Source of the DNA: an uncultured Gammaproteobacteria bacterium
GTDB taxonomy: Bacteria > Patescibacteriota > Microgenomatia > Levybacterales > UBA12049
NCBI GenBank assembly: GCA_964610465.1
Contig: CAZSWA010000001.1
Coordinates: forward strand, 79,023-143,022
Direction: 5' to 3'
Length of the DNA stretch: 64,000 nucleotides
A program made the translations under genes and the position numbers. The notes below the pieces were generated by a model. The model saw only the letters and a list, made by a program, of their open reading frames with translations. It ran no database searches and was not told where the DNA came from. Of the stretch, positions 36,124 to 61,916 are shown piece after piece (the first letter of the stretch is position 1; each line of letters opens with the position of its first letter).

Positions 36124-36242
36124 ACTGAAGTATATTTTCTAATATGACAGGCTACTAATAAAATTCGGAAATAAAATTGTGATAATAGTGTAAGAAAAAA
36201 AGTATAGCAGAAAAAGATATAGAATTAATTTTCTAAAATGAG

Positions 36243-36314
36243 TCGGGGTGCTCGGAATTGAACCGAGGCCTTACGCACCCCATGCGCAAATACTATCCGT
36301 TATACTACACCCCG
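36243..36314 (-). tRNA. tRNA-Pro (anticodon GGG)
   Basis: The minus-strand sequence CGGGGTG-TA-GTAT-AACGGATA-GTAT-T-TGCGC-ATGGGGT-GCGTA-AGGC-CTCGG-TTCAATT-CCGAG-CACCCCG-A folds as a cloverleaf. It has a 7-bp acceptor stem, a T-loop TTCAATT and an anticodon loop AU-GGG-GU. CCA is not encoded. Confidence 0.85.
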
Positions 36315-54196: not shown

Positions 54197-55990
54197 ATGT
54201 TAGATATCGCAAGACTTAGAAAAAACAAACTACATATTATTTCCATTGGAAGTTATCCATCAATCATCCAATCGATATTGGATTTTGATTATCTTGTAGG
54301 AAAACAAACACCAAGTATAAAAGCAATTATTGCAACAGGACGCAATAGTGAACGATATTTTTGGGGAAAGAAAGAAATTCTTTTGCCGGTTTTTACTAGT
54401 GCGCAAAGTATTCCTCAGAAAGATTCCATTAATTTTTTTCTTAATCTTTCATCGGGTCGTAGAGTTTTTGCTTCAACTTGTGAATTATTAGATATATTGC
54501 CTGCTATGTTAGGAGGAGTTGTTTTTGCTGAAAACGTTCCTGAACAACATGCAATAGCACTTTACCAAAAAATAAAAGACAGTGACAGATTTATTGTCGG
54601 TCCGGCAAGTATAGGAGTTCTTATCCCGAATATGATAAAAGCAGGTGCAATTGGTGGAGTAGATGCGAGACAATTTGTGGAATCCTCCCTTTTTGATTCG
54701 GGAAGTGTTGCAGTTCTTTCATCATCAGGAGGAATGACCAATGAATTGATTCGTACAGTAGCACAAAGCGGAAAAAGACTTTCTTTTGCATTGTCTTTTG
54801 GCGGTGAAAGATTTCCTATAACTACTCCAAAAGACGCATTTCTTGCAGCAGAAAAAGATGACAATACAAAAACTATCGTATACTTTGGCGAATTGGGAGG
54901 GACTGATGAATTTGATATCGCAGATTTACTACAATCAAAAAAAGTAACAAAACCGGTTGTGTGTTATATCGCAGGAGTTATTGCAGACATATTTCCTACT
55001 CCACCTCAATTTGGTCATGCCAAAGCATTGGCACAAAAAGAAAATGAAACTGCACAAGAGAAAAGAGATGTTCTAAAAAAAGCGGGTGCAAAAGTTGCTG
55101 ATTCATACACTCAATTTCTTGAGTTTATCAAGGACATAGAAGATACCTCTATGAAAAGTGAAAGAGAATATACTACAATAATTAAGTCTATGGAAAACAG
55201 ACAACATGCGCTTATCACAACAAGTATCTCAGGGGATAAAGATGGGAATCCCCAGATTTTGGGTGAGAATTTATTAGATGCTGCCAAAAATAATTCGTTT
55301 GCGGCAATTGTTGGTTCGTTATTCTTAGGACAAAAAATAAAATCAAAAGAGCTTGAAGAGTTTGTTGATTTTGTTCTCAGACTTCTTGTTGATCACGGAC
55401 CTTATGTGTCAGGTGCTGTCAATACCATCATTTCAGCTCGCGCCGGACGGGATTTAGTATCAGCCCTTAGTACTGGACTTTTAACTATTGGTCCGCGTTT
55501 TGGTGGCGCAATAAACCAAGCAGCAGAGAATTGGATACAAGGAGTTACGACTTCTCAAGATCAATCTCTATTTGTTGAAGATTTTGCAACACACAAAAAA
55601 TATATTTCAGGAATAGGGCACAAGAAATACAGAATAGATTTGCCAGACCCAAGAGTTAAAGAAATCTTAAGATTTGCAGAAAAACTTGAGGAAAAAAGAT
55701 TTACGAATTTTGCTCTTGCAATTGAAAAAATCACAACTGCAAAAAAAGGAAATTTAATCTTAAATGTTGATGGTGCAATTGCAGCAGTGCTTTTGGATAT
55801 TCTTTCAGAAAGAGAACACCTACAGGATGATGAATTACAAAAACTTACCCAGATAGAATTCTTCAATGGTTTGTTTGTCCTTTCCCGTTCTGTTGGCTTT
55901 ATGGCACATTATTTTGATCAGAAACGATTGGATGAAGGATTGTTTAGATTGGATGAGAATTTAGTAGCAGAAGTTGGAGAAAAAGAATAA
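54197..55990 (+). CDS. aclA: ATP-citrate lyase large subunit (CoA-binding, phospho-His, citrate-synthase-like domain)
   Basis: A CoA-binding/ligase domain is present. The catalytic His lies in PPQFGHAKALAQKENETAQEK (cf. ACL QFGHAGA). The citryl-CoA lyase domain is LLVDHGPYVSGAVNTIISARAGRDLVSALSTGLLTIGPRFGGAI...GIGHKKYRIDLPDPRV, which tracks the ACL C-terminal region closely. Confidence 0.85.
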   Translation: MLDIARLRKNKLHIISIGSYPSIIQSILDFDYLVGKQTPSIKAIIATGRNSERYFWGKKEILLPVFTSAQSIPQKDSINFFLNLSSGRRVFASTCELLDILPAMLGGVVFAENVPEQHAIALYQKIKDSDRFIVGPASIGVLIPNMIKAGAIGGVDARQFVESSLFDSGSVAVLSSSGGMTNELIRTVAQSGKRLSFALSFGGERFPITTPKDAFLAAEKDDNTKTIVYFGELGGTDEFDIADLLQSKKVTKPVVCYIAGVIADIFPTPPQFGHAKALAQKENETAQEKRDVLKKAGAKVADSYTQFLEFIKDIEDTSMKSEREYTTIIKSMENRQHALITTSISGDKDGNPQILGENLLDAAKNNSFAAIVGSLFLGQKIKSKELEEFVDFVLRLLVDHGPYVSGAVNTIISARAGRDLVSALSTGLLTIGPRFGGAINQAAENWIQGVTTSQDQSLFVEDFATHKKYISGIGHKKYRIDLPDPRVKEILRFAEKLEEKRFTNFALAIEKITTAKKGNLILNVDGAIAAVLLDILSEREHLQDDELQKLTQIEFFNGLFVLSRSVGFMAHYFDQKRLDEGLFRLDENLVAEVGEKE

Positions 55991-57630: not shown

Positions 57631-57656
57631 AACCCCTTATATAAGGGGTTTTTTTG
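57631..57656 (+). terminator. intrinsic terminator after murB
   Basis: AACCCCTTA-tat-TAAGGGGTT hairpin followed by T7. Confidence 0.7.
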
Positions 57657-57668
57657 TGGAGAAAAAAT

Positions 57669-58934
57669 ATGCAAAATGAAATTTTAAGACAGCTCACAAA
57701 CAATGAATACCTTGAGAGAACTTCTTGGGAACAAGAAGATGTTCGGCGAGGAAAAAATCTTTCTTATTTTTCAGAAAGTGTTATTCAGGATGATTGGGTG
57801 AAACAAGCACTTGTGCAATCAGTACATCTTAATAGTGAACTTACTGAAGCAAAATACCTTGCTCCGTTTCATGAGCCTGCATCTGTTTTTCGTGGAGCAT
57901 TTTCAATTGATGTAATTGATCCTATTTCAATCATTCCCAATAAAGATTTTTATACCGATCCTCCTGAAAGAATCTTATCTGTTTTTGCATCAAGTTCTGT
58001 TCGTCGTGGGAAAAAAGAGTTATTTGCTGATTATATTAGCGAGATTAAACAAAAACTTTACCATTATACAAGAAAAGCAAATCCTGTTGAGTTTGTTCTG
58101 CCAACGCTTCCATTTAAAGATCAAAATCCTTTCACAACAAGACATAGTATTGATGCAGTTGATTTAGGAGAATATCTCTTTTTTGCTCAACTTCGGGATA
58201 TTACTACTGCTATAACAGAGACATATCCACCAGGAGTAAGAATTACACTTCTTACAGATGGTTTAGTGTATAAAGACTTATTTGCAAATGGGCAACGAAA
58301 TGCGATAGAAGAATATAGAAGAAACTGCCAACAGATTAGGGATGAGATGGGTTTAAAAGGAGTTATCGATATTGTTGATATGGAATGCATTGTGGGAAAA
58401 GATGCGGACTTCTATGATATACAACAAAAAATGCAAGAGAGGATACAAATACTAAGCGAATCAGATACAACAGTTGCATTACATATACGATCTCTTGCTC
58501 ATGGAATGCGTTGGAATATACCAATACACGGACATTCATATGATGAGTATAGACAAATGTTTGAGCAAAATAACCTTTCTCAAGAAATAACTAAGCAGAC
58601 CTACAATACTGCAGTAAACTATGCATCATTTCTCCTTGCAATGAGACGTACGCGAGCTATTGAACGAGCATTTCCTCATGCTGTGAGATTGACAGTACAT
58701 CCCAAAAAAGCACCACAAATACCGATTCATTTAGTAAATAATCGTTCCATAATATTTCCTTATAATGGCGTACCAGTTGTGTCAGAGAAAAGAATGGAAG
58801 AAACTAAAAATATCAGACAATCAACGAAAATAATGAGATTTGCCGATGTGTTAGATTTTCCATCAGCAAAAGCCGTCTATGTCGCTGATAAAGCTGAACC
58901 ATTCTATTATCAAATTGATGAAAGGAGTGTATAA
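57669..58934 (+). CDS. PvcA/Dit1 (isonitrile synthase) family homolog with ~130-aa N-terminal extension
   Basis: EFVLPTLPFKDQNP (cf. PvcA FVLPAFPCKSP), GVRITLLTDGLVYKDLF (cf. ITIVSDGHVFSD) and AVRLTVHPKK (cf. LRLSIHPHS). The start is assigned to the ATG at 57669, downstream of the terminator. The family assignment is from remembered PvcA motifs. Confidence 0.5.
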   Translation: MQNEILRQLTNNEYLERTSWEQEDVRRGKNLSYFSESVIQDDWVKQALVQSVHLNSELTEAKYLAPFHEPASVFRGAFSIDVIDPISIIPNKDFYTDPPERILSVFASSSVRRGKKELFADYISEIKQKLYHYTRKANPVEFVLPTLPFKDQNPFTTRHSIDAVDLGEYLFFAQLRDITTAITETYPPGVRITLLTDGLVYKDLFANGQRNAIEEYRRNCQQIRDEMGLKGVIDIVDMECIVGKDADFYDIQQKMQERIQILSESDTTVALHIRSLAHGMRWNIPIHGHSYDEYRQMFEQNNLSQEITKQTYNTAVNYASFLLAMRRTRAIERAFPHAVRLTVHPKKAPQIPIHLVNNRSIIFPYNGVPVVSEKRMEETKNIRQSTKIMRFADVLDFPSAKAVYVADKAEPFYYQIDERSV

Positions 58935-58941
58935 TACTGGT

Positions 58942-61242
58942 ATGTTTTGGGCAGACACACTGTTAGAAGGAAGAAAAAATAAAGAAGTCATTAATGATTC
59001 GTGGACTCCGTCTGGAATCGTCCATATGGGATCTTTGAAAGGTCCAATCATCCACGACACACTTTTCCGTATTTTAAAAGAAAGAAAACAGGAGGTTACT
59101 TTTATGTATGGGTTTGATGATATGGATCCAATTGATGGAATTCCTCCAGATCTGAAAGGTTTGTTTGAAAAATACCTTGGTATACCTATATTCCTTGCTC
59201 CATCTCCTGATGGGAAAGGTTCGTTTGGTGATTTCTACGGAAATAAAATGAAACACATTCTTGATACGTTAGATATTCATCCTGATAGATTGTATAAAAC
59301 AAGTGAAGTGTACAAAAGTGGAGAATTTGATAATGCGATTAGGTATGTATTGAATAATGCTGATGCAGTGAGAAAGGTATATGAAGAAGTGTATAAAAAG
59401 CCAATTGCAAACGATTGGTATCCATTGCAAGTTATTTGTCCAAATTGTGGAAAACTTGGAACGACAAATGTTACTGGATGGGATAGGAAAGAGGTTGCAT
59501 TTATTTGCGAAAAAAATCTTGTGCAATGGGCAGAAGGATGCGATTTTACAGGCAAAATTTCTCCTTTTAAAGGAAATGCCAAAATGCCTTGGAAAGTAGA
59601 ATGGGCTGCAAAATGGTGGACATTTGGAGTAACAATTGAAGGGGCTGGTAAAGATCATGCATCAGCAGGTGGTTCTTATGATGTTGCAATGAAACTCTGC
59701 AAAGAAGTCTTTAAAAAAGAGACACCGTTAAAGATTGCATACGAATTTTTCCTTTCAGGCGGCAAAAAAATGTCTTCTTCAAAAGGTACCGGTTTGACAG
59801 GTGAGGAACTTTTGGAAGCATTGCCACCGGAAGTAGTAAGATTTTTAATGATTAAAAATCCACCAAATCAAGCAGTTGAATTTACTCCCAGAGATACTGA
59901 TACAATACAGAATTTGTTTGATGAGTATTTTAAAGCAGCGGATACATATTATCAAAAATCAGATGAGAACTTGGCAAGAGCATTTGAACTGTCTCAAATC
60001 GGCAGTCCAAAGAGGATCCCCGCACTCCGAATGAGAGTAATTTCGCAATTAGTACAGATGCCTAACAAAGAAGAAGAAATAAGAAGAGAAGGACTGGAAG
60101 AATGGTCCCGTTTTGCCAGAGTATGGGTTGAAAAATATGCTCCTGAATCAGAAAAATTTTTGGTGCAAGAAAAAGTTCCGCAAGCTGCAAAATCACTTTC
60201 TGAGACACAAAAACACTATTTACAAACGATTGCAAATTGTATAGACAAAAATTGGAATGCGGAAGATTTTCAAAAAAAACTTTATGAATCGGCAAAAGAT
60301 TTAGGAGTTTTACCAAAAGAAGCATTTTCTGCAATTTATCTGTCTCTTATTGGGAAGGATCATGGTCCGAAAGCTGCTTGGCTCCTTTTATCCCTTGAGA
60401 AAGAGTTTATTAAAAAAAGATTCACTGAAGTTACTACAGAAAAACAAAGAGCAAGCCTTCGTCATGATGAGAGTCTGCTAAGCTCAACCGATGACCTCAC
60501 GCCGAGGGGAAGTAAGAGTCAAAAAAATGATAAACAAATTCAACTTCTCAATAAACCTGAGATATTTTCTATTGGCGTGGAGATTAAACAAAAATTTTCT
60601 TCAATTTCAGTCGGTATTGCAGTAATTAAAGGAGTAAATATACAGAAAACAAACTCGGAATTAGAAAAAGAAAAACAAGAATTATTGACTATTTTAAAGG
60701 ATTTAACAACAGAACAATTAGGTCAGTATCCTGAGATTGCGAGTTATCGAAAATTATATAAAGCAATGGGTATCGATTGGCATTCACGTCGTCCAAGTCC
60801 TGAAGCATTACTTCGGAGAATAGCCCTTAAAAAAGGATTATATACAGTTAATACATGTGTTGACGCATATAACCTTATCGTTATGAAACATCGTATCTCG
60901 GTCGGTGCTTTTGATTTAGATAGAATTGAGTTTCCCACAGGTTTACGTTTCGCAAAAAACGGTGAAGAGATACTATTACTTGGTGAACAACAACCAACAC
61001 AATATAAAGAAGGAGAAATCGCCTATTTCGATAAACAAGGTGGATACAATATAGATTTTAACTATCGTGATGCGCAACGGACAGCTGTGACAGAACAAAC
61101 AAAAAATATCTATATTAATGTTGATGGTATATATGAGATTACTACTGAGAGAGTAGAAGAAGTTTTACATGAAGCTTGCAATATAATCCTAAAATACTGC
61201 GGTGGGAAAATAGAAACTTTTGGAGTAGAAACTGGTAAATGA
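58942..61242 (+). CDS. lysS: class I lysyl-tRNA synthetase fused to a C-terminal B3/B4 (PheT-type) domain
   Basis: Class I HIGH-like SGIVHMGSLKG and KMSKS-like GGKKMSSSKGTG motifs sit in a LysRS-I-like catalytic core of ~520 aa. The extra C-terminal ~260 aa contains LYTVNTCVDAYNLIVMKHRISVGAFDLDRI, which matches the B3/B4 domain consensus. Possible starts are 58918 or 58942. Confidence 0.75.
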   Translation: MFWADTLLEGRKNKEVINDSWTPSGIVHMGSLKGPIIHDTLFRILKERKQEVTFMYGFDDMDPIDGIPPDLKGLFEKYLGIPIFLAPSPDGKGSFGDFYGNKMKHILDTLDIHPDRLYKTSEVYKSGEFDNAIRYVLNNADAVRKVYEEVYKKPIANDWYPLQVICPNCGKLGTTNVTGWDRKEVAFICEKNLVQWAEGCDFTGKISPFKGNAKMPWKVEWAAKWWTFGVTIEGAGKDHASAGGSYDVAMKLCKEVFKKETPLKIAYEFFLSGGKKMSSSKGTGLTGEELLEALPPEVVRFLMIKNPPNQAVEFTPRDTDTIQNLFDEYFKAADTYYQKSDENLARAFELSQIGSPKRIPALRMRVISQLVQMPNKEEEIRREGLEEWSRFARVWVEKYAPESEKFLVQEKVPQAAKSLSETQKHYLQTIANCIDKNWNAEDFQKKLYESAKDLGVLPKEAFSAIYLSLIGKDHGPKAAWLLLSLEKEFIKKRFTEVTTEKQRASLRHDESLLSSTDDLTPRGSKSQKNDKQIQLLNKPEIFSIGVEIKQKFSSISVGIAVIKGVNIQKTNSELEKEKQELLTILKDLTTEQLGQYPEIASYRKLYKAMGIDWHSRRPSPEALLRRIALKKGLYTVNTCVDAYNLIVMKHRISVGAFDLDRIEFPTGLRFAKNGEEILLLGEQQPTQYKEGEIAYFDKQGGYNIDFNYRDAQRTAVTEQTKNIYINVDGIYEITTERVEEVLHEACNIILKYCGGKIETFGVETGK

Positions 61243-61916
61243 AAAAACTTCTTATCGCAACTACGAATAGTGGAAAAGTTGGAGAACTCAAAAAATTTTT
61301 ATCAGAATTACCTTTAGAGTTAGTTTCTTTAAACGATCTCCATATTACTCAAGAAATTGAAGAAGATGGGAAAACCTACGAAGATAATTCCAAAAAGAAA
61401 GCATTATATTACGCAAAATTAAGCGGATTACCTGCTGTTTCAGATGACGGAGGAATTGAAATTGCTGCATTTGGAGAAAAACCTGGAGTTCATTCCAGAC
61501 GTTGATTAGGAGAAGATGCAACTGAAAGAGATTTAATTGCTCATATGAAAAAAGTTGCAAAAGAATTGCCAAGATGATAATCGGATGCAGTTTTTAAAGT
61601 AGTTGTTACCTTTGCACTTCCATCAGGTGAATCATGGTCGGTAAAAGGAGAAATACAGGGAATGATTGCAAAAAAAACGCATTCAGACTCCTTGAGGGAT
61701 ATCCTTATCGGTCATTTTTTTTATCTGCCTGATATAAGGAAATACTATCATGAAGATGACTTAAGTGAGGAAGAAACAAAAAAATATAACCCTCGCTATA
61801 AAGCGGTTAAAAAATTACAGCCAATTGTAAAAAAATACTTAGAATTTAAGCGAATTTTTAAATCTCACCAGATTTTTTCATTATTTGGCGATATAATAAA
61901 CAATATAGAAACTTAG
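61239..61916 (+). pseudogene. rdgB: Ham1/RdgB (dITP/XTP pyrophosphatase) gene interrupted by three in-frame stop codons
   Basis: A single reading frame aligns end-to-end with RdgB: ATTNSGKVGELKKFL, AVSDDGGIEI, PGVHSRR-[TGA]-LGEDAT (cf. PGIYSARYSGEDAT), ...ELPR-[TGA][TAA]-SDAVFKVVVTFAL (cf. ARFHCVLVYL), then a C-terminal segment. The stops are at 61503-05 and 61575-80. The GFGYDP motif region has diverged. There are no frameshifts. Confidence 0.65.

What the first reader, a model, noticed from the sequence alone, without database searches (positions are those of the whole stretch)
58942..61242. Class I LysRS with a C-terminal PheT-type B3/B4 domain
The ORF has a class I lysyl-tRNA synthetase core (HIGH-like HMGS and KMSKS-like KMSSSKG). 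It is followed by a ~260-aa extension whose last ~150 aa match the B3/B4 domain, which is the editing/tRNA-binding module of the PheRS beta subunit and of free-standing trans-editing factors. Class I LysRS normally has no editing domain. The fusion suggests a cis-acting proofreading or tRNA-anchoring function. This could be against near-cognate amino acids such as ornithine or homocysteine, or linked to the product of the adjacent upstream enzyme.
Basis: partly seen in the sequence, partly recalled or inferred. Interest (0 to 1): 0.55.

Follow-up and report, generated by a model that had tools for sequence, protein, structure and literature searches.

The report
Lysyl-tRNA synthetase with tethered CtdA-like deacylase
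A lysine-charging enzyme from a tiny uncultured (CPR) bacterium carries, on a flexible tether, a complete copy of a tRNA-proofreading module, and because the same module is also attached to the unrelated second type of lysine-charging enzyme, it is probably the first dedicated error-correction domain found on any lysyl-tRNA synthetase.

Summary
Window 58942-61242 (+) is one uninterrupted ORF of 766 aa. It has three parts: a class I LysRS core (aa 1-500), a disordered, poorly conserved tether (aa 501-535), and a 231-aa B3/4-fold module (aa 536-766).

The module is not PheT-type. In sequence and fold it is a complete copy of the free-standing deacylase family typified by CtdA, the canavanyl-tRNA(Arg) deacylase.
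- It keeps CtdA's catalytic Tyr-Asn pair (Y643, N644).
- Its substrate-pocket residues differ from CtdA's.
- It is more conserved (71% pairwise identity) than the synthetase core (57%).

The fusion is widespread in Patescibacteria (Microgenomatia). The same module type also sits on class II LysRS, which is not homologous to class I. Other fusions place a module at the N-terminus of either LysRS class, in a bacterium and in an archaeon. Relatives with a CtdA-like pocket are fused to ArgRS.

Best reading: a tethered post-transfer editing domain for mischarged tRNA(Lys). The substrate is unknown, and I found no description of this in the literature I could search. The suggested link to the upstream PvcA-like gene is not supported. 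I rate it a new variant of a known kind, interest about 0.68.

The parts
58942..61242 (+). Complete ORF (766 aa plus TGA stop): class I LysRS, tether, CtdA-like B3/4 module
   Evidence: The frame is uninterrupted. All 120 best homologs share the architecture. The full-length AF2 model has pLDDT 90.6.
58942..60441 (+). Class I LysRS core (aa 1-500): Rossmann catalytic domain, Zn-Cys insertion and helical anticodon-binding domain
   Evidence: PF01921 covers aa 11-352 at 2.4e-86 and PF19269 covers aa 414-495. TIGR00467 scores 325.7 bits against a cutoff of 147.55. Foldseek matches 1irx at E 1.6e-39 with TM 0.82 normalised to the target. C166, C169, C189 and C200 are invariant.
59023..59034 (+). 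HIGH-type signature HMGS (aa 28-31)
   Evidence: Read from the sequence. H28 is conserved in at least 90% of 69 homologs and G30 is invariant.
59767..59787 (+). KMSKS-type signature KMSSSKG (aa 276-282)
   Evidence: Read from the sequence. K276, M277, S280, K281 and G282 are invariant.
60442..60546 (+). Flexible tether (aa 501-535)
   Evidence: pLDDT is below 50 for aa 501-530. Homolog tethers average 14% identity to the query's tether. The length between the F494 and F542 equivalents ranges from 23 to 56 aa in 121 sequences, and is 47 aa here.
60547..61239 (+). CtdA-family B3/4-fold module (aa 536-766), the putative aminoacyl-tRNA deacylase
   Evidence: PF03483 scores 84.9 bits. PDB sequence search gives CtdA first: 9mkl at 1.6e-5 and 9f7e at 5.9e-5. 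The module-only AF2 model has pLDDT 95.9 and pTM 0.92. Foldseek gives CtdA at E 1.6e-16 with TM 0.79-0.83, and PheRS beta at TM 0.55-0.64. Mean pairwise identity is 71% against 57% for the core.
60781..60819 (+). Near-invariant basic motif HSRRPSPEALLRR (aa 614-626) in the CtdA-specific helical insert, a candidate tRNA acceptor-stem contact
   Evidence: H614, S615, R617, P618, S619, P620, E621, A622, L624, R625 and R626 are invariant. The motif aligns to CtdA 'RTPCSAEALRKR'. The CtdA structure paper proposes that positive residues of this insert bind the tRNA stem. The tRNA-contact role here is inferred.
60868..60873 (+). Y643-N644, equivalent to the catalytic Y104-N105 of CtdA (T249/N250 in E. 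coli PheRS beta)
   Evidence: The mapping comes from the phmmer alignment to 9f7e and 9mkl. Both residues are invariant in 69 homologs. Mutagenesis showed Y104 and N105 to be catalytically important in CtdA.
60904..60912 (+). G655-A656-F657, equivalent to the CtdA G116-G117-E118 loop, with the deep-pocket acid E118 replaced by an aromatic residue
   Evidence: G655 and F657 are invariant. E118 is required for CtdA activity.
61048..61071 (+). Segment N703..D705..N707..R709-D710, in which CtdA C166 becomes N703, R168 becomes D705 and Q173 becomes D710
   Evidence: Alignment. D705, N707, R709 and D710 are invariant, and N703 is conserved in at least 90%. C166 and Q173 modulate CtdA specificity and activity.
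61123..61125 (+). D728, equivalent to the deep-pocket acid E191 of CtdA
   Evidence: Alignment. D728 is invariant. E191 is required for CtdA activity.

Best explanation
The gene encodes the class I lysyl-tRNA synthetase of a Microgenomatia-type (Patescibacteria/CPR) bacterium. A complete, autonomous CtdA-family aminoacyl-tRNA deacylase is attached to it by a 23-56-residue disordered tether.

Proposed mechanism:
1. The synthetase core charges tRNA(Lys).
2. The tether keeps the deacylase at high local concentration beside the tRNA that LysRS is holding or has just released.
3. The aminoacylated CCA end is sampled by the module's pocket.
4. The module hydrolyses non-lysine esters and spares Lys-tRNA(Lys). 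This is post-transfer editing in cis, with tRNA(Lys) specificity supplied by proximity to LysRS rather than by the module itself.

The pocket keeps the catalytic Tyr-Asn pair. It places acidic residues at two positions documented as pocket residues in CtdA (D710 and D728) and an aromatic residue (F657) where CtdA has E118. The likely substrates are therefore cationic near-cognates of lysine, for example ornithine, arginine-type analogues or lysine analogues.

Shown: the architecture, the fold, conservation of the catalytic residues, and the repeated association with LysRS.
Inferred: hydrolytic activity, action on tRNA(Lys), and the identity of the substrate.
For: 1. The module is a full CtdA-type fold, including the CtdA-specific helical insert. 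TM is 0.79-0.83 over about 230 residues at E about 1e-16. CtdA is an experimentally proven aa-tRNA deacylase.

2. The residues shown by mutagenesis to matter for CtdA catalysis are kept. Y104 and N105 correspond to Y643 and N644, both invariant. G116 corresponds to G655. E191 corresponds to D728, which is invariant.

3. The module is under stronger constraint than the enzyme it is attached to.
- Pairwise identity is 71% for the module against 57% for the core.
- By tblastn across 36 loci of the species-representative genome collection, the module is 59-75% identical and the core 35-64%.

4. The association with LysRS is repeated and independent.
- The same pocket type (Y-N-F/Y-x-D-D-D) is fused C-terminally to class II LysRS. 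L023 passes TIGR00499 at 538.7 bits against a cutoff of 427.6.
- Class II-fused modules such as P0124 (60% identical) are closer to the window's module than many class I-fused ones (28-44%).
- N-terminal fusions exist on class II LysRS in a bacterium (P0182) and on class I LysRS in an archaeon (P0253).

5. Pocket residues track the partner enzyme. ArgRS-fused modules keep the CtdA signature E-C-R-E-E, and the main LysRS clade has F-N-D-D-D.

6. The tether is disordered and variable, and both N- and C-terminal attachment occur. This fits a proximity mechanism rather than a fixed docking geometry.

7. Free-standing versions of the same pocket type exist (P0126). This mirrors other families that have both fused and free-standing editing forms.
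Against: - There is no biochemical evidence, and hydrolytic activity is inferred from homology at only about 18-19% identity to CtdA.
- The CtdA papers stress that no shared catalytic mechanism beyond N105 is established for this fold.
- E118, which is needed for CtdA activity, is replaced by Phe.
- The substrate cannot be deduced. Which residues line the pocket here rests on a sequence alignment and not on coordinates.
- I could not test whether the fusion is the only LysRS in its genome. The 64-kb window has no other.
- I could not test whether class I LysRS of these organisms actually mischarges anything.
- A minority of LysRS fusions carry a CtdA-like pocket (P0235, P0253, P0182, P0261). 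'LysRS-fused' therefore does not map to a single specificity.
- The neighbour-joining tree has no support values.
Confidence: 0.6

Rival explanations
1. The module is a non-catalytic tRNA-binding appendage. It raises the affinity of LysRS for tRNA(Lys), as appended RNA-binding domains do on other synthetases, and has lost or never had hydrolytic activity.
For: - The B3/4 fold binds the tRNA acceptor end.
- The invariant basic motif HSRRPSPEALLRR lies in the insert that has been proposed to contact the tRNA stem.
- E118 of CtdA is lost.
- Class I LysRS needs tRNA for amino-acid activation, so extra tRNA affinity could be useful.
Against: - The catalytic Y-N pair, the G655 loop and the buried acidic pocket residues are invariant. 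The module as a whole is more conserved than the core. That is more constraint than a generic RNA-binding surface would need.
- The same module is found on class II LysRS, which does not need tRNA for activation.
- Pocket residues co-vary with the partner synthetase. This is expected for amino-acid recognition and not for tRNA-backbone binding.
Confidence: 0.12
2. The module is an active deacylase that works in trans on products of other synthetases, for example canavanyl- or other analogue-charged tRNA(Arg). LysRS would be merely a convenient carrier.
For: - CtdA acts as a stand-alone enzyme and does not need ArgRS.
- How CtdA recognises tRNA is unknown.
- Some LysRS fusions carry a CtdA/ArgRS-like pocket.
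- A long flexible tether would not prevent action in trans.
Against: - At least four separate fusion geometries all involve LysRS, across both classes and across two domains of life.
- Modules with the CtdA pocket are instead found on ArgRS.
- The window-type pocket differs from CtdA at E118, C166 and Q173.
Confidence: 0.08
3. The module performs some other chemistry coupled to LysRS. Examples are controlled hydrolysis of cognate Lys-tRNA(Lys) to tune charging, removal of lysine from non-cognate tRNAs, or hydrolysis of a lysine-derived ester that is not a tRNA.
For: - Related class II LysRS enzymes in the same lineage carry other hydrolase-like appendages (HD domain, DUF2000), alone or together with B3_4. 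LysRS in these organisms therefore collects accessory activities that need not all be editing.
- The substrate is unknown.
Against: - No precedent exists in the B3/4 or CtdA family. Known members are editing deacylases that spare the cognate aa-tRNA.
- Hydrolysing the enzyme's own product would be a futile cycle.
Confidence: 0.12
4. The fusion is an artefact: a frameshift or assembly error has joined a LysRS gene and a separate B3/4 gene.
For: The gene immediately downstream (Ham1/RdgB) carries stops and a frame slip, so the region is not free of lesions.
Against: - The reading frame is continuous.
- An identical architecture occurs in all 120 best homologs from many independent assemblies and in 29 of the 36 loci from the species-representative genome collection.
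- The AF2 model is confident for both bodies.
Confidence: 0.01

Closest known systems
CtdA, canavanyl-tRNA(Arg) deacylase (free-standing B3/4 protein; PDB 9f7e, 9mkl)
   Same: The fold is the same over the full length, including the CtdA-specific helical insert (TM 0.79-0.83). The following are conserved: Y104/N105, G116, the RxPxSxEALxxR motif, N170, R172, T177, and an acid at the E191 position.
   Different: - It is fused to a synthetase rather than free-standing.
- Sequence identity is only about 18-19%.
- Pocket residues differ: E118 is F657, C166 is N703, R168 is D705 and Q173 is D710.
- The partner is LysRS, not ArgRS, so the expected tRNA and amino-acid substrates differ.
- Activity is untested.
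B3/B4 editing domain of bacterial PheRS beta subunit (PheT)
   Same: It shares the B3/4 core fold and belongs to the same Pfam family, PF03483. It shares the conserved Asn (E. coli beta N250) next to the scissile ester. It is a cis-editing domain within a synthetase polypeptide.
   Different: - Structural similarity is lower (TM 0.55-0.64).
- The pheT_bact profile scores 26-31 bits against a cutoff of 402.
- The PheT-specific helices that dock onto the B1/B2/B5 domains and the alpha subunit are absent, and the CtdA-type insert is present instead.
- E. coli beta H265 aligns to G655.
- It is attached by a flexible tether rather than being rigidly integrated.
Canonical class I LysRS (archaeal type; P. 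horikoshii 1IRX; TIGR00467)
   Same: The core aligns end to end (32% identity, TM 0.82). It has the HIGH and KMSKS signatures, the Zn-binding cysteines and the helical anticodon-binding domain.
   Different: Canonical enzymes are about 510-530 aa and end after the anticodon-binding domain. This one continues into a tether and a 231-aa deacylase-like module.
Editing families that occur both fused and free-standing: AlaRS/ThrRS with AlaX, ProRS-INS with YbaK/ProXp
   Same: The same evolutionary pattern is seen here. One deacylase fold occurs fused to several synthetases (here LysRS1, LysRS2, ArgRS and TyrRS) and also free-standing. For YbaK, reliance on the partner synthetase for tRNA specificity is documented.
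   Different: The fold is different. No member of those families is fused to LysRS. [quoted passage not shown]

Membership tests
Class I lysyl-tRNA synthetase (PF01921 / TIGR00467) | Whole-protein profile score above the curated cutoff | tested here: met
   TIGR00467 scores 325.7 bits against a cutoff of 147.55. PF01921 scores 290.3 bits against 27.
Class I lysyl-tRNA synthetase (PF01921 / TIGR00467) | HIGH-type and KMSKS-type signature motifs in a Rossmann-fold catalytic domain | tested here: met
   HMGS is at aa 28-31 and KMSSSKG at aa 276-282, and both are conserved in homologs. The fold matches 1irx at TM 0.82.
Class I lysyl-tRNA synthetase (PF01921 / TIGR00467) | Lysylation of tRNA(Lys), with tRNA-dependent amino-acid activation | not testable with these tools
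   This needs an enzyme assay.
Pfam B3_4 (PF03483) | Profile score above the gathering threshold | tested here: met
   84.9 bits in the full protein and 88.5 bits for the C-terminal part alone, against 29.3.
CtdA family (free-standing canavanyl-tRNA(Arg) deacylase) | B3/B4 fold with the CtdA-specific helical insert (alpha2-alpha4) | tested here: met
   Foldseek gives TM 0.79-0.83 over 226-231 residues of 9mkl and 9f7e. Helices at module residues 37-49, 55-58, 62-73 and 84-93 occupy the insert position, which is described.
CtdA family (free-standing canavanyl-tRNA(Arg) deacylase) | Catalytic Y104 and N105 | tested here: met
   These correspond to Y643 and N644, both invariant in 69 homologs.
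CtdA family (free-standing canavanyl-tRNA(Arg) deacylase) | Pocket residues E118, C166, Q173 and E191 that bind canavanine | tested here: not met
   The equivalents are F657, N703, D710 and D728. Only the E191 position keeps an acid.
CtdA family (free-standing canavanyl-tRNA(Arg) deacylase) | Stand-alone single-domain protein | tested here: not met
   It is fused to LysRS. Free-standing relatives of the same pocket type do exist (P0126).
CtdA family (free-standing canavanyl-tRNA(Arg) deacylase) | Hydrolysis of canavanyl-tRNA(Arg) with discrimination against Arg-tRNA(Arg) | not testable with these tools
   This needs a deacylation assay.
PheRS beta-subunit editing domain (PheT) | Membership of pheT_bact, with the flanking B1/B2 and B5 domains | tested here: not met
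   TIGR00472 scores 26.5-31 bits against a cutoff of 402.65 and matches only the B3/4 segment. No tRNA_bind or B5 hits were found.
PheRS beta-subunit editing domain (PheT) | Editing-site residues: E. coli beta T249/N250 and H265 | tested here: inconclusive
   The N250 equivalent is kept (N644). The T249 position is Tyr, as in CtdA. H265 aligns to G655. Other editing-site residues such as E334 were not mapped. The CtdA structure paper reports that these residues are not conserved across the fold.
YtpR-like / tRNA_bind (PF01588) proteins | OB-fold tRNA_bind domain | tested here: not met
   The window protein has no PF01588 hit. One distant class II fusion, P0142, has tRNA_bind in addition to B3_4.

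The most novel reading that the evidence does not exclude
The window-type module, with pocket Y-N-F-N-D-D-D, is a dedicated post-transfer editing domain for tRNA(Lys). It would be the first such domain for any LysRS, recruited separately by the two non-homologous LysRS classes and, in other lineages, at either terminus.

If so, three things follow:
- It would assign a substrate system to an uncharacterised branch of the CtdA family.
- It would imply that some lysine-like, probably cationic, non-protein amino acid is a strong and specific fidelity threat in CPR bacteria.
- It would extend to ArgRS and TyrRS, whose fusions would then be unrecognised cis-editing synthetases.
Probability: 0.5. Interest if true: 0.8.

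Novelty: new variant of a known kind. Interest (0 to 1): 0.68.

Why it matters
LysRS is the only synthetase that exists in both structural classes. The reviews I read describe only pre-transfer editing for it and no post-transfer editing domain.

Finding one deacylase module joined to both unrelated LysRS types is a natural experiment. It ties the module's function to lysine and tRNA(Lys) rather than to a particular enzyme scaffold.

It also offers a concrete, testable lead for a question the 2025 CtdA paper leaves open: what the divergent non-CtdA-1 members of the family act on. It further predicts that ArgRS and TyrRS fusions are cis-editing enzymes, although ArgRS has been described as lacking any editing domain.

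For CPR biology, it suggests that these minimal-genome organisms invest in translation fidelity against a specific metabolite. Practically, such modules could serve as tools to clean up mischarging in engineered lysine-analogue incorporation systems.

Tried and rejected
- **Frameshift or assembly join.** Rejected. The frame is continuous and the architecture is conserved in more than 120 homologs.

- **Alternative genetic code** (raised by TGA at a conserved Trp position in the downstream Ham1 gene). Rejected. That gene also has a TAA stop and a frame slip. TGA ends LysRS and four other long ORFs. Ham1 is a pseudogene.

- **Functional link to the upstream PvcA/DIT1-like gene.** Rejected on synteny. 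The gene has no tblastn match in any of 36 related loci, and the upstream neighbours vary between relatives.

- **PheT-type or YtpR-type classification.** Rejected in favour of CtdA-type.

- **Second LysRS or module copy in the window.** None found. The whole genome could not be checked.

- **Source names and taxonomy.** Cluster look-ups returned no names except one 'Promethearchaeota' label for P0133. The lineage of the window is inferred from its nearest relatives.

- **Literature searches.**
  - Searches containing 'B3 B4' or 'B3 4' cannot match the printed 'B3/B4'. The term scored 0 occurrences even in the CtdA papers, so searches are uninformative.
  - The informative checks were full-text 'find' for fus*/LysRS/lysyl in three CtdA papers, two reviews and AARS Online, and a CtdA+LysRS co-occurrence search. 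None describes a LysRS fusion.
  - Subscription-only papers were not searched.

- **DUF2000 and HD appendages of related class II LysRS.** PDB sequence matches were only weak: 2gax at E 0.17, and a symmetrical Ap4A hydrolase at E 0.029. No conclusion was drawn.

Full report
**Observation**

Window 58879-61242 (+) is one open frame. Homologs begin at MFWAD, which is the ATG at 58942, giving 766 aa. The public gene call P0001 starts 8 codons earlier.

Pfam and NCBIfam place a class I LysRS over aa 3-495:
- PF01921 at 2.4e-86.
- TIGR00467 at 325.7 bits against a cutoff of 147.55.
- PF19269 anticodon-binding domain over aa 414-495.

They place a B3_4 domain over aa 602-754 (6.7e-24, 84.9 bits against 29.3). 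HMGS (aa 28-31) and KMSSSKG (aa 276-282) are present and conserved. All 120 best full-length homologs (52-100% identity) carry both domains, so a frameshift or mis-assembly is excluded.

**Anatomy**

The full-length AlphaFold model is confident (pLDDT 90.6). It shows two folded bodies joined by a segment with pLDDT below 50 at aa 501-530.

| Region | Conservation | Note |
|---|---|---|
| Core (aa 1-500) | 57% mean pairwise identity | |
| Tether (aa 501-535) | 14% mean identity to the query's tether | Length 23-56 residues between conserved anchors |
| Module (aa 536-766) | 71% mean pairwise identity | |

These figures come from 121 sequences. The same asymmetry appears by tblastn in 36 loci from the species-representative genome collection: 59-75% identity for the module and 35-64% for the core. 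The appended module is therefore under tighter constraint than the essential enzyme that carries it.

**What the module is**

Sequence search of the PDB puts free-standing B3/4 proteins first: 9mkl at 1.6e-5 and 9f7e (CtdA) at 5.9e-5. PheRS beta subunits follow at 0.008 and weaker. The pheT_bact profile gives only 26-31 bits against a cutoff of 402.

The module-only model (pLDDT 95.9, pTM 0.92) matches CtdA at E about 1e-16 with TM 0.79-0.83 over essentially the whole of both proteins. Bacterial PheRS beta gives TM 0.55-0.64.

CtdA is an experimentally characterised stand-alone canavanyl-tRNA(Arg) deacylase. It has the B3/B4 core plus its own helical insert. The whole 231-aa module is homologous to it, not only the last 150 aa.

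**Catalytic and pocket residues**

I mapped residues using the phmmer alignment to 9f7e and 9mkl and the residue roles reported in the CtdA papers.

| CtdA residue | Window protein | Conservation in 69 homologs |
|---|---|---|
| Y104 | Y643 | invariant |
| N105 | N644 | invariant |
| G116 | G655 | invariant |
| E118 | F657 | invariant |
| C166 | N703 | at least 90% |
| R168 | D705 | invariant |
| Q173 | D710 | invariant |
| E191 | D728 | invariant |

The catalytic pair is retained and the specificity-determining positions are systematically different. Two acidic residues remain at documented pocket positions (D710 and D728). I read this, as an inference only, as compatible with a cationic side chain.

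**Distribution and the key finding**

A scan of the species-representative genome collection with the module found 36 loci.
- Thirty-four carry the module, all in Patescibacteria-type MAGs: Levy-, Davies-, Gottesman- and Roizmanbacteria, plus several records with evidently wrong phylum labels.
- The other two (L035, L036) are ordinary PheT genes.
- In 29 loci the module is in one ORF with a class I LysRS.
- In L023, L032 and L033 the same module (56-63% identical) is instead the C-terminus of a class II LysRS. L023 scores TIGR00499 at 538.7 bits against 427.6, with Pfam tRNA_anti-codon + tRNA-synt_2 + B3_4.

An exhaustive search of 1.84 billion representative proteins with the module alone gave 2227 hits at E up to 1e-3 and 815 at E up to 1e-10. 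Classifying the best 150 showed these architectures:
- LysRS1-module.
- LysRS2-module, some extended by DUF2000, HD or tRNA_bind domains.
- module-LysRS2 (P0182, in a bacterial context).
- module-LysRS1 (P0253, in an archaeal context with S27e, S24e and Rpb7).
- module-ArgRS (8 proteins, one with two tandem modules).
- module-TyrRS (2 proteins).
- Many free-standing proteins of about 230 aa. One of the window's pocket type was verified as truly stand-alone (P0126).

**Pocket signature tracks the partner**

At the positions equivalent to CtdA 104/105/118/166/168/173/191, the signatures are:

| Group | Signature |
|---|---|
| CtdA | Y N E C R Q E |
| ArgRS fusions (7 of 9 modules) | Y N E C R E E |
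| Main LysRS clade, both class I- and class II-fused | Y N F/Y x D D D |

Within that LysRS clade the two kinds of fusion interleave. Class II-fused P0124, P0132 and P0133 are 60%, 51% and 50% identical to the window's module. Distant class I-fused modules are only 28-44% identical. The neighbour-joining tree has no support values.

A minority of LysRS fusions, including both N-terminal ones, have a CtdA-like pocket. More than one specificity may therefore be coupled to LysRS.

**Mechanism**

The most economical reading is a tethered post-transfer editing domain. LysRS provides tRNA(Lys) selection. The disordered tether keeps an autonomous deacylase next to the acceptor end. Non-lysine esters are hydrolysed.

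Several observations fit a proximity mechanism:
- Attachment occurs at either terminus, to either LysRS class.
- The linkers are unconserved and of variable length.
- Free-standing paralogs exist.

This resembles YbaK, which depends on ProRS for tRNA specificity. Reviews state that class II LysRS edits homocysteine, homoserine and ornithine before transfer by cyclisation. They list no post-transfer editing domain for LysRS.

The steps shown are architecture, fold, residue conservation and association. The steps inferred are hydrolysis, tRNA(Lys) as the target, and a cationic near-cognate as the substrate. I put 0.6 on this explanation. The rivals are scored in the report: a non-catalytic tRNA-binding appendage, trans action on other tRNAs, other LysRS-coupled chemistry, and artefact.

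**Context**

The PvcA/DIT1-like gene upstream (57654-58934; PF05141 at 2.3e-26) has no counterpart in any related locus. The gene upstream of LysRS varies between relatives:
- An Orn/DAP/Arg decarboxylase in L002.
- An amino-acid kinase in L012.
- An HDAC-family protein in L006.
- Unknown proteins elsewhere.

MurB upstream and Ham1 downstream are the recurrent neighbours. In this window Ham1 is a pseudogene.

**Novelty**

The proteins are in public databases, labelled simply 'lysine--tRNA ligase'. I found no description of a LysRS, ArgRS or TyrRS fusion with a CtdA-like module in any of the following:
- The three CtdA papers.
- Two reviews and AARS Online.
- A CtdA+LysRS co-occurrence search.

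The 2023 CtdA paper states that no editing domain is described for ArgRS. The 2025 paper leaves the specificity of its divergent CtdA-2 clade open.

There are two caveats. Searches using 'B3 B4' could not match 'B3/B4' and are uninformative, and subscription literature was not searched.

I classify the finding as a new variant of a known kind. It combines a synthetase cis-editing domain drawn from a known deacylase family with a new partner and a new pocket type.

Noticed in passing
window 61239-61916 (+): The Ham1/RdgB (non-canonical NTP pyrophosphatase) gene starts on the ATGA that overlaps the LysRS stop, and it is a pseudogene. It has TGA at 61503 in place of a conserved Trp, TGA-TAA at 61575-61580, and a local frame slip next to a T8 run at about 61700. 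Orthologs in L012 and L013 are intact.
   Followed up: yes
window 57654-58934 (+): A DIT1/PvcA-family (isonitrile-synthase-like) gene lies directly upstream of LysRS (PF05141 at 2.3e-26; it scores far below the NCBIfam PvcA cutoff). It is absent from all 36 related loci, so it looks like a lineage-specific acquisition in a CPR genome. Its function there is unknown.
   Followed up: partly
P0188, P0194, P0209, P0215, P0216, P0234, P0240, P0250 (ArgRS); P0206, P0229 (TyrRS): CtdA-like modules are fused to the N-terminus of ArgRS, and P0194 has two in tandem. Seven of the nine ArgRS-fused modules keep the CtdA pocket signature (E-C-R-E-E), which suggests cis-editing ArgRS enzymes against canavanine-type analogues. 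Modules are also fused to TyrRS, with a different pocket. The CtdA papers I read mention no such fusions.
   Followed up: partly
P0299, P0387, P0280, P0136, P0294, P0133, P0142 (relatives of L023): Class II LysRS of Microgenomatia-type bacteria occurs bare (about 488 aa) or with C-terminal DUF2000 (PF09391), an HD domain, B3_4+DUF2000, B3_4+HD, or tRNA_bind+B3_4+HD. The HD part weakly resembles a symmetrical Ap4A hydrolase (E 0.029). That would be interesting because, from my own knowledge, LysRS makes Ap4A. The DUF2000 role is unknown.
   Followed up: partly
L033 ~3771; L034 6001-6726: L033 (class II LysRS-module) has one in-frame TAA inside the module. L034 is a heavily degraded pseudogene copy of the module in the same MAG (STL-PAT6) as the intact class II fusion L032.
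   Followed up: no
window 54197-55990 (+); also L004 1-1845: A 597-aa protein combines CoA-ligase and citrate-synthase C-terminal domains, an ATP-citrate-lyase or citryl-CoA-lyase-like architecture. It is syntenic in at least one relative. This is unusual central-carbon equipment for a CPR genome.
   Followed up: no
L004, L006, L014, L017, L023, L024, L031, L033, L036; L002, L011: Many records in the species-representative genome collection that carry typical Microgenomatia LysRS-module loci are titled 'uncultured Gammaproteobacteria', 'Methylomirabilota' or 'Eisenbacteria'. These are probably taxonomic mislabels of MAGs.
   Followed up: no
L002 2885-4102; L012 3380-4369: In two relatives the gene immediately upstream of the LysRS fusion is an Orn/DAP/Arg-type PLP decarboxylase (L002) or an amino-acid (aspartate-type) kinase (L012). 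Both could belong to lysine biosynthesis. The association is not general.
   Followed up: partly
window 36242-36314 (-): The only tRNA gene in the 64-kb window is tRNA-Pro(GGG). There is no tRNA-Lys near the LysRS gene.
   Followed up: no
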